Shown here: in pieces, positions 21,857 to 24,423 of the stretch
Numbering within the stretch: the first letter of the stretch is position 1
How the letters are laid out: each line of letters begins with the position of its first letter
From: a virus
Lineage: Duplodnaviria > Heunggongvirae > Uroviricota > Caudoviricetes
DNA: 64,000 nt
Virus record (IMG/VR): IMGVR_UViG_3300045988_149282
Span: 33,636 to 97,635 of that record
Reading direction: 5' to 3' (one strand)
Translations under genes and position numbers: made by a program
The notes under the pieces: generated by a model
Told to the model about the DNA's origin: nothing
What the model saw: the letters and a program-made list of their open reading frames with translations, nothing else
Database searches by the model: none

Positions 21857-22010
21857 GACACAGCGTTGAGCGGTTTGGCCTTTTAATCAACCAGATTAAG
21901 ACTCCGCTAACATAAACCAGACCGCTCAACGCTGTGATAGACAATTACGGCAGACGTTCTTAACCATAGCTTGCTAACATCCTAGCAACACTTTTTTCAG
22001 CGCAAAATTC

Positions 22011-22036
22011 AAAGGGGCTTCGGCCCCTTTTTTGAT
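22011..22036 (+). terminator. rho-independent terminator after tRNA cluster
   Basis: aggggcttcggcccct hairpin followed by TTTTTTG; degenerate second copy at 22915-22943. Confidence 0.65.
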
Positions 22037-22149
22037 TTGTTGACACTTAGTTATATTCACGTATCGTTTTATCGCTTTGATCCGAGGCAGCGTTAGACTG
22101 CCTTCATGTTCCTGATTAGATCGCAGCAGTTAAACATGGAGACAAATTA

Positions 22150-22704
22150 ATGAAGAAGTGCCATCTCAATATTTTCGCATCTCTAATAATTGCGTTAACA
22201 CTAACAGGGTGTAACGAATCTGAAATAGATGAATTAACGTTAATAGGCAAAGATAAAAGTGAACTTGAACAAAATTATAAAGCCCAATTCAAGAAGCTAA
22301 CACAAAATGTTGAAGTGTTTATTCTTCAAGATAAAAATAGTCCGACTGAAAAAGAACCGCATACGAATGGCAACCTGATCGACGGAAAAGTCGAAATGTC
22401 ATTAACCAGTAATGTTGGTAAGTATACATTCATCCAGATAAGTGAAATGCTGACAAAGGAGTACGGAAAACCCGTTGCTACAAAAGATCGTGTTTTTAAC
22501 AGAGAAGCAGTATCTGGCATGGACTGTATTGAAACTAAAACTTGTGGAGCTGGTAAATATTATGAAATCTTTCGAGGGAAGGATAGATTGATTATGGTGT
22601 CAAACGGTGCCGGTCTTTTACACGAAAAGGAAGGTGTAACACTACTCACCATCACCGATAAACAATTTAAATTTTCTCGTTTAGAAGAAGATAAAATAAA
22701 ATAA
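22150..22704 (+). CDS. lipoprotein of unknown function (AT-rich moron; superinfection-exclusion candidate)
   Basis: 184 aa; signal peptide with lipobox LTLTGC; GGAGA RBS; markedly AT-rich relative to flanks. Confidence 0.55.
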   Translation: MKKCHLNIFASLIIALTLTGCNESEIDELTLIGKDKSELEQNYKAQFKKLTQNVEVFILQDKNSPTEKEPHTNGNLIDGKVEMSLTSNVGKYTFIQISEMLTKEYGKPVATKDRVFNREAVSGMDCIETKTCGAGKYYEIFRGKDRLIMVSNGAGLLHEKEGVTLLTITDKQFKFSRLEEDKIK

Positions 22705-22708
22705 TGAC

Positions 22709-22735
22709 AGGGGCGTATACGCCCCTATCTAAAAT
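22709..22735 (+). terminator. rho-independent terminator after lipoprotein gene
   Basis: aggggcgta tacgcccct perfect hairpin followed by AT-rich tract. Confidence 0.6.
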
Positions 22736-22955
22736 TTGACATTAAACATATATTGCATCTGGTATCAGCAATTTTTGTGCGCTATGTAAGTCCTTACCTG
22801 CAATCAGTCTCATAAATATCGGATTTTACGTAGCGTACCATCGTTACAGCAAGCATCAAATTATTCACTGACATTTATGCGCTGAAAACAGCGTTACTTA
22901 CCGTAAAATAACAATTTTCAGCGCAAAATTTAAAGAGGCTTCGAATCTGCACAAC

Positions 22956-24284
22956 CTATTGTGCGTACTCGCCCAATTTTAATGTTTCACGCTTATATTC
23001 ATCAACTATCTCACATGATTTAATATAGATATGGCACAATAGGTTATCACTATCATCATTATCGTTTATTGCCATAAGTGCCAACTTTTTCTCATATTCA
23101 TCGATCGCATCACTCAACTGATCACCTGTAATTACATCTGACTCACTCGAGAAATATAACTGCCCAAGATTTACCGCATTTTTTCCAGTTTTTCTTTGCT
23201 CTATGTAATTTTTAATCATATCCTTCACATCCTTTTCACTACTCAGTATTTCACTTTCGAAATGGACATGCTCTGAAATCGACGCGACTCTGCAACCGAT
23301 CAAACGATGAATATAGTCATCAATAGACGTAACACTATCATTAGCTTTTTTTAGTGCTTCATCAAAAATGCTCTTTACCTCATTTGGCAAATTTTTAAAA
23401 TAATCATCAATTAAACCAGATAATGGTGTTTGGTAGTTCATTAATACCGATGAAGCAACTTGCGGACGACGAGCCACCCAGATTTCTTTGACTTCAACTT
23501 GAGAATAATATTCCTTAATCACGTTCCAAAAGTATTTTAACATCTTGGTTTTAAATATTTTATCAAATCTATCCTTTATAAATAGCTCTACTTCAGGCAT
23601 GCTTGAATAAGCATCATCAAAGAATATTTCATCTTTGAAAAAATCATATTTATTTAATAAAGCATACAGTTTTTTTGAATCCAGCGGTTCACGAGAATCG
23701 ATGTCCAATCCAAAAACTGCAATAACCAACTTCATTTGCGGTGGTATTTTTCCACTCAATTGAATAATATATTCCATTTTTTCATCAAAACAATTTCCAT
23801 CTATGTAAAATCGGTTATCTACATAGACTAATATATTGGTAATATGTTTTATGTACTGAATAACCTCATGCTTTCTTACCAATGGATAAAAAAACGAATG
23901 CATTTCATTTTTATTAAATTGTTTTTTTGTCTGTTCAATGATTGGTATGACATTATTGTACAACTCATCATGCTGATTTAATAAAGTGTCAAACCATTCT
24001 TTGAAAGAATTTTTTCTCATCTCAATCAATGAATCGGTAGTTATCCTAACGGCCTCCAGTGCTGCCTTTGCACTTTTTCTTGCTTCATAGGCGTTCCACG
24101 CTGTTGCACAAAAAGCCGCTGTCGTTATAAAACTACTCAATACAGCAATTTGGTCTGTAACCTTCCAATCTTGAAATGGCTCAAGTAGTAAACCTAAAAA
24201 CAAAATTATTATGGAAAACATTAGAATTGCAACAGAAATAAAAACAGGCATGTATGCTCTCGTACTTACCATTGTTAGTTGCAT
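22956..24284 (-). CDS. membrane-anchored protein of unknown function (defence/abortive-infection candidate)
   Basis: 442 aa; two N-terminal TM helices then ~380-aa Lys/Glu/Asp-rich soluble domain; very AT-rich; three alternative in-frame ATG starts within the first 12 codons. Confidence 0.5.
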   Translation of the reverse strand: MQLTMVSTRAYMPVFISVAILMFSIIILFLGLLLEPFQDWKVTDQIAVLSSFITTAAFCATAWNAYEARKSAKAALEAVRITTDSLIEMRKNSFKEWFDTLLNQHDELYNNVIPIIEQTKKQFNKNEMHSFFYPLVRKHEVIQYIKHITNILVYVDNRFYIDGNCFDEKMEYIIQLSGKIPPQMKLVIAVFGLDIDSREPLDSKKLYALLNKYDFFKDEIFFDDAYSSMPEVELFIKDRFDKIFKTKMLKYFWNVIKEYYSQVEVKEIWVARRPQVASSVLMNYQTPLSGLIDDYFKNLPNEVKSIFDEALKKANDSVTSIDDYIHRLIGCRVASISEHVHFESEILSSEKDVKDMIKNYIEQRKTGKNAVNLGQLYFSSESDVITGDQLSDAIDEYEKKLALMAINDNDDSDNLLCHIYIKSCEIVDEYKRETLKLGEYAQ

Positions 24285-24423
24285 TAAATATTAACTAAAT
24301 TAAGTTGTGATTAACAGGCAAGTTTACGATGTATTGCAGACATTAAATAGGTTTTTACTTACCTATCTTTTATAGTAATATTTATTTTCTGGTTAAGTAA
24401 CACATAATTATTATGAGGTAAAC

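What the first reader, a model, noticed from the sequence alone, without database searches (positions are those of the whole stretch)
21994..24420. AT-rich island next to the tRNA cluster: lipoprotein plus divergent 442-aa two-TM protein, bounded by a duplicated terminator
Base composition drops sharply across 22150-24400 relative to the rest of the window. A 29-bp sequence (ttttcagcgcaaaattcaaaggggcttcg) that forms the terminator after the tRNA cluster (21994-22022) recurs with 2 mismatches at 22915-22943, bracketing the lipoprotein gene, as if a cassette inserted at the terminator with target duplication. The lipoprotein (22150-22704) and the minus-strand membrane-anchored protein (22956-24284) match no family I recognise. 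Phage lipoproteins near host-range genes often mediate superinfection exclusion, and AT-rich membrane-anchored singletons in phage hotspots are frequently abortive-infection effectors. This is the strongest candidate in the window for an undescribed protective module.
Basis: partly seen in the sequence, partly recalled or inferred. Interest (0 to 1): 0.75.

Follow-up and report, generated by a model that had tools for sequence, protein, structure and literature searches.

The report
AbiC-like gene plus orphan lipoprotein
A variable, AT-rich slot of an E. coli phage-plasmid holds two independent accessory genes: a divergent, so far unannotated relative of the AbiC/AbiP membrane-anchored phage abortive-infection proteins, and a small lipoprotein of unknown function. 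It is an ordinary kind of accessory-gene hotspot with one probable defence gene, not an undescribed two-gene module.

Summary
The observation largely holds. Window 22035-24412 has the lowest G+C in the window (0.336 against 0.465; z = -5). The 29-nt repeat is real, and both ORFs are intact.

The window is an SSU5/pHCM2-type E. coli phage-plasmid. The island fills a variable slot between the tRNA-block terminator and grx.

The minus-strand membrane protein probably starts at M12, giving 431 aa (22956-24251). It matches nothing directly, but it is a full-length remote homologue of Pfam putAbiC proteins:
- A reciprocal HMM gives 88 bits (E = 3e-23).
- hhalign gives 99% probability.
- 52 of 66 relatives hit PF16872.

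It shares the architecture described for lactococcal AbiC. Very divergent alleles (100, 55 and about 30% identity) sit in the same slot between nearly identical flanks, usually without the lipoprotein.

The lipoprotein (22150-22704) has a clear lipobox and its own promoter and terminator. It belongs to a narrow orphan family, and its function is unresolved.

The second repeat copy is not a terminator. It is the left half of the tRNA terminator, which abuts the Abi-like gene in relatives. The repeat therefore brackets only the lipoprotein segment, and the two genes are separate modules.

Verdict: new member of a known kind, moderate interest.

The parts
21770..21856 (+). tRNA-Ser (UGA), the last gene of the tRNA block. 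It forms the conserved left flank of the variable slot.
   Evidence: ARAGORN. It is 97-99% identical in relatives up to 22034.
21994..22035 (+). Intrinsic terminator of the tRNA block: hairpin 22011-22030 plus a T-run. Copy 1 of the 29-nt repeat is 21994-22022. All relatives lose homology with each other right after the T-run.
   Evidence: -15.3 kcal/mol.
22040..22067 (+). Sigma-70-like promoter of the lipoprotein gene: TTGACA, 16 nt, TATCGT (10 of 12 matches). The -35 element is conserved in the L002 allele.
   Evidence: This is a consensus match only; promoter-like sites are not enriched in the region.
22150..22704 (+). Lipoprotein, 184 aa. It has a signal peptide with lipobox L-T-G-C (Cys21, Asn at +2) and invariant Cys126 and Cys132. 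It belongs to an orphan family (phrog_15156).
22706..22729 (.). G+C-rich hairpin directly after the lipoprotein stop codon. It is stable on both strands and followed by a U-rich tail on the minus strand. It probably terminates both convergent genes.
   Evidence: -15.0 kcal/mol on + and -19.6 kcal/mol on -, z = -4.2 and -5.6.
22730..22914 (.). Non-coding spacer found only in elements that carry this lipoprotein/TM combination. It contains an inverted partial copy of the repeat at 22875-22898.
22915..22943 (+). Copy 2 of the 29-nt repeat (27 of 29 identical). It is the left half of the tRNA-Ser terminator, without the descending stem and T-run. In relatives that lack the lipoprotein, the intact terminator sits exactly here, 3' of the TM gene.
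22956..24251 (-). AbiC/putAbiC-like membrane-anchored protein, 431 aa (the ORF is open to 24284). It has an N-terminal hairpin of two hydrophobic helices and then an all-helical domain of about 370 aa. It belongs to phrog_18168.
24252..24423 (.). Very AT-rich (G+C 0.267) divergent intergenic region between the TM gene and grx. It presumably holds the TM gene's promoter. Backbone homology resumes at 24412-24413.
   Evidence: Part of it (to 24324) travels with the gene on IncF-like plasmids.
24424..24669 (+). Glutaredoxin (GrxA family). It forms the conserved right flank of the slot.

Best explanation
The AT-rich island is two independent accessory genes stacked in the variable slot of an SSU5/pHCM2-type E. 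coli phage-plasmid. The slot lies between the terminator of the tRNA block and grx.

(1) The minus-strand gene (22956-24251, 431 aa) encodes a divergent member of the putAbiC (Pfam PF16872) group, which includes lactococcal AbiC and AbiP. These are single-gene, membrane-anchored abortive-infection proteins. A hairpin of two N-terminal hydrophobic helices anchors it in the inner membrane. By the positive-inside rule, the all-helical domain of about 370 aa faces the cytoplasm. The gene is a self-contained unit with its own AT-rich upstream region and a downstream hairpin. I infer that it is made in the plasmid (lysogenic) state and stops the development of other infecting phages at a post-injection step. 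In Lactococcus, AbiC lowers major capsid protein production, and AbiP binds RNA/ssDNA and blocks the early-to-late switch. The very different alleles found in the same slot would then have different phage specificities.

(2) The plus-strand gene (22150-22704) encodes a 184-aa lipoprotein that is probably sorted to the outer membrane (Asn at +2). It has its own promoter and terminator and belongs to a narrow orphan family. Its function is not resolved. My best guess, at low confidence, is an envelope-level exclusion or lysogenic-conversion function.

The present arrangement arose by recombination at the tRNA terminator. The lipoprotein segment now lies between the intact terminator and the half-terminator still attached to the Abi-like gene.

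Shown: homology, architecture, variable presence, allele replacement and repeat anatomy. Inferred: expression, defence phenotype, mechanism and topology.
For: Identity of the element:
- The best matches are roughly 105-115 kb non-mobilizable E. coli plasmids and the phages Cyrano and CMS-2020a.
- The neighbourhood is DnaB, ligase, tRNAs, grx, int, CobT and DnaE.

Homology of the TM protein:
- Family members P0008 and P0009 (30% identical to the window protein) reach the Pfam gathering score for putAbiC over the most conserved block.
- 52 of 66 full-length relatives found by a profile search of 1.84 billion representatives hit putAbiC (best E = 1.4e-11). Nine hit PADLOC AbiC and six hit AbiP.
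- An HMM built only from 8 remote members that each pass the putAbiC gathering score hits the window protein at 88 bits, E = 3e-23, over HMM positions 1-411. It hits no other of 194 window ORFs.
- hhalign of A1 against a protein that NCBI names 'putative phage abortive infection protein' gives 99.0% probability, E = 8e-18, over 295 columns.

Architecture:
- The model has pLDDT 71.7 and is all-helical, with N-terminal helices 2-22 and 31 onward.
- The loop between the helices is acidic and the segment after helix 2 is basic.

Accessory and arms-race signature:
- The gene is absent from Cyrano and from L004.
- Alleles of 55% and 34% identity sit in the same slot between flanks that are 96-98% identical in DNA.
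- It occupies the same slot in Klebsiella, Enterobacter and Salmonella phage-plasmids.
- A 30%-identical allele has been captured on IncF-like plasmids together with tRNA-Ser and the terminator at 99.2% identity.
- All alleles have G+C 0.31-0.33 whatever their context.
- Other cargo in or near the slot includes a YafO toxin and Gp49-family genes.

Lipoprotein:
- The lipobox and the Cys pair are invariant.
- It has a promoter and a terminator.
- It is present in 108 plasmids including 106.7-kb Salmonella plasmids, and in a Kluyvera chromosomal island.

Repeat anatomy.
Against: - The window protein itself does not reach any threshold in Pfam, PADLOC or NCBIfam. The link is transitive.
- Only lactococcal AbiC and AbiP have a demonstrated phenotype. 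They are very distant, and their mechanism is unknown.
- No enterobacterial member has been tested as far as my literature searches show. 'putAbiC' and 'PF16872' return no papers, and a DefenseFinder survey of SSU5-type phage-plasmids does not list AbiC among the systems in the passages I read.
- No catalytic motif is conserved. Only hydrophobic and aromatic residues and one His are nearly invariant.
- The second TM helix is marginal by hydropathy.
- For the lipoprotein there is no homology, no usable model (pLDDT 46.7) and no contextual clue to function.
Confidence: 0.6

Rival explanations
1. The lipoprotein and the membrane protein form one two-gene protective cassette that transposed into the tRNA terminator and duplicated 29 nt of target.
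For: - The 29-nt direct repeat is real and far beyond chance.
- Both genes are equally AT-rich, with GC3 of 0.30.
- The pair, with its spacer, is inherited as a block in at least two backgrounds.
Against: - The repeat flanks only the lipoprotein and spacer; the TM gene lies outside it.
- In relatives, the TM gene alone abuts the intact terminator (L009, L016, L011). In others, the lipoprotein alone follows the terminator (L002, L023).
- 138 plasmids carry a TM homologue and 108 carry a lipoprotein homologue, but only 3 carry this pair at >=99%.
- There is no transposase, integrase-associated att site or terminal inverted repeat.
- 29 nt is much longer than usual target duplications (established knowledge).
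- The genes are convergent and are separate transcription units.
Confidence: 0.07
2. The membrane protein serves the phage-plasmid's own life cycle rather than defence against other phages. Possible roles are superinfection exclusion against relatives, lysis timing, or membrane anchoring of replication.
For: - It sits inside the replication and nucleotide-metabolism module, at a fixed position in phage-plasmids of four genera.
- The Abi annotation of the family rests on two lactococcal proteins only.
- No effector domain is recognisable.
Against: - It is absent from the functional phage Cyrano and from most E. coli relatives.
- Its alleles are replaced wholesale between near-identical flanks.
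- It is also carried by conjugative IncF-type plasmids and by chromosomes that have no phage module.
- Exclusion of related phages would still be a protective function.
Confidence: 0.15
3. The lipoprotein is a Cor/Llp-type receptor-masking superinfection-exclusion protein, and the Abi-like gene is incidental.
For: - It has a lipobox with Asn at +2, which predicts outer-membrane sorting.
- It has its own promoter immediately after a terminator, which is a moron-like layout.
- Its alleles are 61-99% identical and recombine within the gene.
- There is a weak PHROG hit to Cor (E = 0.041).
Against: - The Cor hit covers only the signal peptide (residues 1-50) and is not significant.
- There is no similarity to P1 Plp.
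- No remote homologues and no PDB match were found.
- It is not adjacent to tail-fibre or receptor-binding genes.
- It is also present in a Kluyvera chromosomal island without phage genes.
- The structure model is unusable.
Confidence: 0.2
4. The ORFs are non-functional remnants in horizontally acquired AT-rich DNA.
For: - The G+C content is very low.
- The region is likely to be H-NS-silenced (inference only).
- There are no direct family hits.
Against: - Both ORFs are intact and are conserved as full-length proteins across many clusters with structured conservation patterns: invariant Cys residues and lipobox in one, and a conserved helix 2 and putAbiC block in the other.
- Identical copies occur in isolates from Taiwan, Hungary, a cat and an ivory gull.
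Confidence: 0.03

Closest known systems
Pfam PF16872 putAbiC ('putative phage abortive infection protein'), including enterobacterial proteins so named by NCBI (Cedecea, Klebsiella michiganensis, Serratia, Enterobacter, Citrobacter)
   Same: - Homology runs over the full length: reciprocal HMM 88 bits, and hhalign 99% probability over 295 columns.
- The size is the same (about 420-470 aa).
- The architecture is the same: an N-terminal membrane hairpin followed by a helical domain.
- The conserved block (LLxQH ... Y..L..ID..FY ... Y ... I ... IA ... LL.K.DFF) is shared.
   Different: - Identity is only about 15-20%.
- The window protein and its closest clade (the 55% allele) fall below the Pfam gathering score and are annotated 'hypothetical'.
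- This clade is tied to one slot of SSU5-type phage-plasmids.
Lactococcus lactis AbiC and AbiP (the AbiC/P group of abortive-infection systems)
   Same: - They are single-gene, plasmid-borne proteins.
- The architecture matches: two (AbiC) or one (AbiP) N-terminal TM helices plus an extramembrane helical domain with no structural neighbour of known function.
- PADLOC AbiC and AbiP models hit 9 and 6 of 66 relatives.
   Different: - There is no direct hit of the window protein to the PADLOC AbiC or AbiP models.
- The hosts differ (Gram-positive against Enterobacteriaceae), as do the carriers (phage-plasmid).
- I could not obtain the AbiC or AbiP sequences or models for a direct comparison.
- The phenotype is untested here.
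Cor (phi80/N15/HK022) and Llp (T5) superinfection-exclusion lipoproteins; TraT
   Same: The window lipoprotein is also a small lipoprotein encoded by a mobile element, expressed from its own promoter, and predicted to reach the outer membrane.
   Different: - There is no sequence similarity beyond the signal peptide.
- The mature domain is more than twice as long as that of Cor or Llp (my knowledge).
- It is not next to receptor-binding genes.
- Its function is untested.
Moron / accessory-gene hotspots of temperate phages and phage-plasmids, such as the variable plasmid-like gene repertoires of SSU5-group elements
   Same: - The cargo is low in G+C and has its own promoters and terminators.
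- The content differs between otherwise near-identical elements.
- TA and defence-like genes are found in the same region.
   Different: Nothing fundamental. This is a specific instance in which one slot holds strongly divergent alleles of one gene family.

Membership tests
Pfam PF16872 putAbiC | The protein itself scores at or above the Pfam gathering score (22 bits). | tested here: not met
   There is no putAbiC hit at E <= 1 for the 442-aa or the 431-aa form.
Pfam PF16872 putAbiC | Significant homology to proteins that do pass the gathering score, over the domain region and beyond. | tested here: met
   - P0008 and P0009 (30% identical) score 22.0 and 22.7 bits.
- 52 of 66 relatives hit the model.
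- 8 of 10 remote members score 31-38 bits.
- The HMM built from those 8 hits the window protein at 88 bits, E = 3e-23, uniquely among 194 window ORFs.
- hhalign gives 99.0% probability.
AbiC/P group (lactococcal AbiC, AbiP) | N-terminal transmembrane helix or helices followed by an extramembrane helical domain. | tested here: met
   - The model shows helices 2-22 and 31-111 and then a helical domain.
- Hydropathy is strong for helix 1 and marginal for helix 2.
- The description of AbiC and AbiP comes from PMC13064643.
AbiC/P group (lactococcal AbiC, AbiP) | A direct sequence or structure match to AbiC or AbiP. | tested here: inconclusive
   - PADLOC AbiC and AbiP models give no hit to the window protein.
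- They hit 9 and 6 of 66 relatives (best E = 1.3e-6 and 1e-4).
- The AbiC and AbiP sequences and models were not available to me for superposition.
AbiC/P group (lactococcal AbiC, AbiP) | An abortive-infection phenotype: phage development is blocked after adsorption and injection, with loss of the infected cell. | not testable with these tools
   This needs plating efficiency, efficiency of centre of infection and survival assays.
Bacterial lipoproteins (signal peptidase II substrates) | An N-terminal signal peptide ending in a lipobox [LVI][ASTVI][GAS]C. | tested here: met
   The sequence is MKKCHLNIFASLIIALTLTG|C. L18, T19, G20 and C21 are invariant in 13 sequences, and the +2 residue is Asn.
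Cor/Llp-type superinfection-exclusion lipoproteins | Sequence or profile similarity of the mature domain. | tested here: not met
   The PHROG Cor hit has E = 0.041 and covers residues 1-50 only. There are no remote homologues and no PDB match.
Cor/Llp-type superinfection-exclusion lipoproteins | The gene is located next to the receptor-binding or tail-fibre gene. | tested here: not met
   The neighbours are tRNAs, grx, integrase, ligase and DnaE.
Transposon/IS-borne cassette with target-site duplication | A transposase or recombinase within the repeat-bounded segment, terminal inverted repeats, and a short target duplication. | tested here: not met
   - The only sizeable ORF between the repeats is the lipoprotein.
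- No terminal inverted repeats lie at the ends.
- The repeat is 29 nt and imperfect, and it corresponds to the terminator shared by two alternative slot contents.

The most novel reading that the evidence does not exclude
The slot between the tRNA terminator and grx of SSU5-type phage-plasmids is an allelic 'specificity locus'. Strongly diverged AbiC-like alleles (100, 55 and about 30% identity, exchanged between near-identical backbones and exported to IncF plasmids) would each abort a different set of phages or rival phage-plasmids. This enterobacterial clade, invisible to Pfam, PADLOC and DefenseFinder, would give a tractable E. coli model for the AbiC/P mechanism, which has stayed unknown since 1992. 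The orphan lipoprotein could in addition be a new envelope-level exclusion factor.
Probability: 0.3. Interest if true: 0.6.

Novelty: new member of a known kind. Interest (0 to 1): 0.4.

Why it matters
If the gene is active, standard defence-finding tools miss an AbiC-like defence gene carried by more than 130 sequenced enterobacterial plasmids. Most of these are SSU5-type phage-plasmids from clinical E. coli, Klebsiella, Enterobacter and Salmonella.

Because E. coli is easy to manipulate genetically, this clade could help to solve how AbiC/AbiP-type membrane-anchored proteins sense phages and stop them. The natural allele series offers a ready-made specificity experiment.

The finding also corrects the anatomy. 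The 'duplicated terminator' is a recombination scar, not a transposon footprint, and the two genes are separate modules. The lipoprotein remains an open question, since no function could be assigned to it.

Tried and rejected
Direct family scans:
- Pfam, NCBIfam and PADLOC scans of both proteins gave nothing significant.
- PHROGs only placed them in two families of unknown function.

Structure, TM protein:
- The model has pLDDT 71.7.
- BFVD Foldseek: best E = 0.25.
- PDB Foldseek: best E = 0.25.
- No informative neighbour was found. The afdb50 library was unavailable.

Structure, lipoprotein:
- The model has pLDDT 46.7 and was judged unusable, so it was not searched.

Other searches:
- Profile searches of PDB sequences gave nothing for the lipoprotein and only E >= 0.017 coiled-coil-like hits for the TM family.
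- A profile search for remote lipoprotein relatives added only one partial sequence.
- P1 Plp, a lipoprotein next to P1's tRNAs, is not related to the window lipoprotein.
- The 203-aa gene next to the TM homologue in a Salmonella plasmid is not the lipoprotein.
- Rfam found only the tRNAs.
- Literature searches for 'putAbiC' and 'PF16872' returned no papers.
- tblastn of both proteins against 50,697 phage records found no match.

Considered and rejected: transposon insertion with target duplication, a two-gene operon, and decaying pseudogenes (see the rival explanations).
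Full report
WHAT THE WINDOW IS

The 4.2 kb around the finding matches roughly 105-115 kb non-mobilizable E. coli plasmids and the phages Cyrano and CMS-2020a. A near-identical plasmid annotates the neighbourhood as DnaB-like helicase, ATP-dependent ligase, four tRNAs, glutaredoxin, tyrosine integrase, HTH regulator, CobT-like protein, AAA ATPase and DnaE. 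That is the replication and nucleotide-metabolism module of an SSU5/pHCM2-supergroup phage-plasmid, a group described in the literature. The island is therefore not next to host-range genes.

CHECK OF THE OBSERVATION

- The composition drop is real. G+C is 0.28-0.37 across 22001-24500, against about 0.46 for the window.
- With the boundaries given by comparison to relatives (22035-24412), the island has G+C 0.336, against 0.465 +/- 0.026 elsewhere (z = -5.0). No equally long window elsewhere is as low.
- GC3 is 0.30 for both ORFs and 0.50-0.51 for grx and int.
- The 29-nt repeat (21994-22022 and 22915-22943, 27 of 29 identical) is the only such pair, and 0 are expected by chance.
- Copy 1 is the 5' part of a genuine intrinsic terminator: hairpin 22011-22030 plus a T-run, -15.3 kcal/mol.
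- Copy 2 lacks the descending stem and T-run and does not fold (-2.7 kcal/mol, z = +0.8). 'Duplicated terminator' is therefore inaccurate.
- Both ORFs exist.
- The membrane protein most likely starts at M12 (24251), giving 431 aa. Every homologue starts 'MP...', and RefSeq annotates 431 aa.

THE SLOT AND ITS CONTENTS IN RELATIVES

All relatives share the sequence up to the T-run of the tRNA-Ser terminator (window 22034). They resume at window 24412-24431, just before grx. In between they differ:

- Phage Cyrano and an E. marmotae plasmid have only a Gp49-family gene.
- Many E. coli plasmids have a lipoprotein allele about 75% identical in protein, followed by an unrelated 262-aa ORF.
- Salmonella elements have lipoprotein, a 262-aa ORF, PhoH, Sequestin, Gp49 and then grx.
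- Other E. coli elements have a membrane-protein allele alone.
- The segment 22705-24420 occurs at >=99% in only 3 PLSDB plasmids and 5 of 5,426 complete E. coli genomes, always on plasmids.

In PLSDB, tblastn finds a membrane-protein homologue in 138 plasmids (E. coli 71, Klebsiella 37, Enterobacter 18, Salmonella 6). It finds a lipoprotein homologue in 108 plasmids. A megablast of the backbone integrase finds 601 plasmids. Neither protein has a tblastn match in 50,697 phage records. Neither protein is core, and they are not obligate partners.

WHAT THE REPEAT MEANS

In elements that carry a membrane-protein allele but no lipoprotein (L009, L016), the intact tRNA-Ser terminator lies directly 3' of the convergent membrane-protein gene. 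The alignment of window 22915-24116 to L009 starts exactly at the 29-mer. Copy 2 is therefore the left half of that terminator, still attached to the membrane-protein gene.

The segment between the two copies holds the promoter, the lipoprotein gene, a hairpin and a 210-nt spacer with no homologue in any fetched locus. This is what was added. The arrangement is best explained by recombination between two slot variants at the shared terminator, not by transposition:

- There is no transposase and no terminal inverted repeat.
- The repeat is long and imperfect.
- Recombination is demonstrably active here. One metagenomic relative (L032) is L002-like up to about window 22430 and identical to the window from about 22440 through the spacer and the membrane-protein gene. 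That places a breakpoint inside the lipoprotein gene.

THE MEMBRANE PROTEIN IS A DIVERGENT AbiC-LIKE PROTEIN

A direct search finds only 10 clusters (100, 55, 34-29% identity), all labelled hypothetical. The key results are:

1. Members P0008 and P0009 reach the Pfam gathering score for PF16872 putAbiC over the family's most conserved block.
2. A profile of the family against 1.84 billion representatives finds 86 proteins. Of 66 full-length ones, 52 hit putAbiC (best E = 1.4e-11), 9 hit the PADLOC AbiC model and 6 hit the AbiP model.
3. Eight of ten remote members pass the putAbiC gathering score (31-38 bits). An HMM built from those eight alone hits the window protein at 88 bits, E = 3e-23 for a notional million sequences. 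The hit covers HMM positions 1-411, and no other of 194 window ORFs is hit.
4. hhalign of the close family against a Cedecea protein that NCBI names 'putative phage abortive infection protein' gives 99.0% probability over 295 columns.

The AlphaFold model (pLDDT 71.7) is all-helical. It has helices at 2-22 and from residue 31, followed by a helical domain. Helix 1 is strongly hydrophobic and helix 2 only marginally so. The loop between them is acidic and the segment after helix 2 is basic, which suggests that the large domain is cytoplasmic. This topology is an inference.

The window protein itself fails the Pfam and PADLOC thresholds. I therefore file it as a divergent, currently unannotated member of the putAbiC superfamily. 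Membership of the experimentally defined AbiC/P group is probable but not directly shown.

HOW IT MOST LIKELY WORKS

Shown:
- It is a self-contained unit in the opposite orientation to the backbone.
- A strong hairpin at 22706-22729 lies between the two convergent genes, stable on both strands and U-rich downstream on the minus strand.
- The upstream region has G+C 0.267.
- The gene is variably present.
- Whole alleles have been replaced between flanks that are 96-98% identical.
- An allele was exported to IncF-like plasmids together with tRNA-Ser and the terminator at 99.2% identity.
- More distant members lie on large, probably chromosomal contigs of other Enterobacterales.

Inferred:
- It is expressed in the plasmid state.
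- It is anchored in the inner membrane.
- On infection by another phage, it blocks a post-injection step. In Lactococcus, AbiC lowers major capsid protein production, and AbiP binds RNA/ssDNA and blocks the early-to-late switch.

The most conserved part of the close family is helix 2 and the juxtamembrane stretch ATAWNAYEARKSAKAA. This hints at helix-helix packing or oligomerisation in the membrane, but that is speculation. No catalytic motif is conserved across the superfamily.

THE LIPOPROTEIN

- The lipobox LTG|C is invariant, Asn is at +2, and two Cys residues are invariant.
- A TTGACA-16-TATCGT promoter-like site lies right after the tRNA terminator, and its -35 element is conserved in another allele.
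- The family is narrow: 17 clusters, 61-99% identical. It occurs on SSU5-type elements of Escherichia, Salmonella, Citrobacter and Enterobacter, and in a Kluyvera chromosomal island next to type I restriction-modification remnants.
- There are no remote homologues, no PDB match, no usable model and no relation to P1 Plp. The Cor hit is confined to the signal peptide.
- An envelope-level exclusion or lysogenic-conversion role is a guess.

COMPARISON, NOVELTY AND VERDICT

The hotspot is an ordinary moron or accessory slot. The membrane protein is a new, divergent member of a known but mechanistically unsolved Abi family. Pfam and PADLOC missed it in my scans, and a published DefenseFinder survey of SSU5 elements does not mention AbiC in the passages I read. 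The lipoprotein is an orphan.

Interest is moderate (0.4). The most novel reading still open is a phage-plasmid specificity locus of AbiC-like alleles that offers an E. coli handle on the AbiC/P mechanism. I give it a probability of about 0.3.

Noticed in passing
window 20010-20022, 21022-21034, 24749-24781 (palindromic pair), 30799-30811: The 13-mer AATGATTCCATAC occurs five times exactly, where 0.1 is expected by chance, and extends to AATGATTCCATACAT. One pair forms a 33-nt palindrome between grx and the integrase gene, and that palindrome is conserved in all relatives. It is a candidate operator or recombination site of the phage-plasmid.
   Followed up: partly
L011 7315-7580 (also L012-L015), IncF-like E. 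coli plasmids: A 30%-identical allele of the AbiC-like gene lies among IS1, IS91, IS110 and IS3-family elements on plasmids that carry PsiA/PsiB/ParB/SSB or Rep3 genes. It sits next to a tRNA-Ser gene and terminator that are 99.2% identical to window 21770-22035. A fragment of an SSU5-type phage-plasmid slot was therefore captured by conjugative plasmids.
   Followed up: partly
L032 (Logan SRR29183797), corresponding to window ~22430-22440: This is a mosaic lipoprotein allele (P0012). Its 5' part is about 75% identical to the window, like the L002 allele. Its 3' part, the spacer and the AbiC-like gene are 100% identical to the window. That puts a homologous-recombination breakpoint inside the lipoprotein gene.
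   Followed up: yes
window 21225-21764: The tRNA-Asn and tRNA-Thr genes and the stretch 21464-21764 between tRNA-Thr and tRNA-Ser are 80-89% identical to the tRNA/plp/upl region of phage P1. The window's lipoprotein, however, is unrelated to P1 Plp.
   Followed up: partly
window 22150-22704 compared with homologues: The window's lipoprotein allele is much more AT-rich (G+C 0.35) than the homologous alleles in L002 (0.41), Salmonella L023 (0.47) and Kluyvera L021 (0.43). By contrast, all AbiC-like alleles have G+C 0.31-0.33. The reason is unknown.
   Followed up: no
window 12487-13254 (-): A 255-aa ORF with a LEM-3-like GIY-YIG nuclease domain (Pfam E = 5.5e-7) lies on the opposite strand to its neighbours, beside another low-G+C patch (13001-13500, G+C 0.38). 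It may be a further accessory gene.
   Followed up: no
window 56172-57697 and 62501-63500: Two further low-G+C patches (0.38) were seen. One adjoins an RNase_T-family exonuclease ORF (56172-56729) and a 269-aa ORF with no Pfam hit (56888-57697). The other covers a 223-aa ORF with no Pfam hit (62573-63244).
   Followed up: no
L023-L025 and L029-L031 (Salmonella, Klebsiella, Enterobacter phage-plasmids): In these relatives the slot is longer. It holds PhoH, a 67-aa 'Sequestin' (PF21825) protein and a Gp49-family protein before grx, with a YafO toxin pair after grx. One Klebsiella element also has a colicin E1-family immunity gene. This suggests a wider accessory region rich in toxin and immunity-type genes.
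   Followed up: no
window 22870-22960 (-): Immediately after the stop codon of the AbiC-like gene, the transcript can form a long hairpin (-26.3 kcal/mol, z = -3.4). It is built from repeat copy 2 and an inverted partial copy at 22875-22898, and has no U-tract. Its significance is unknown.
   Followed up: no
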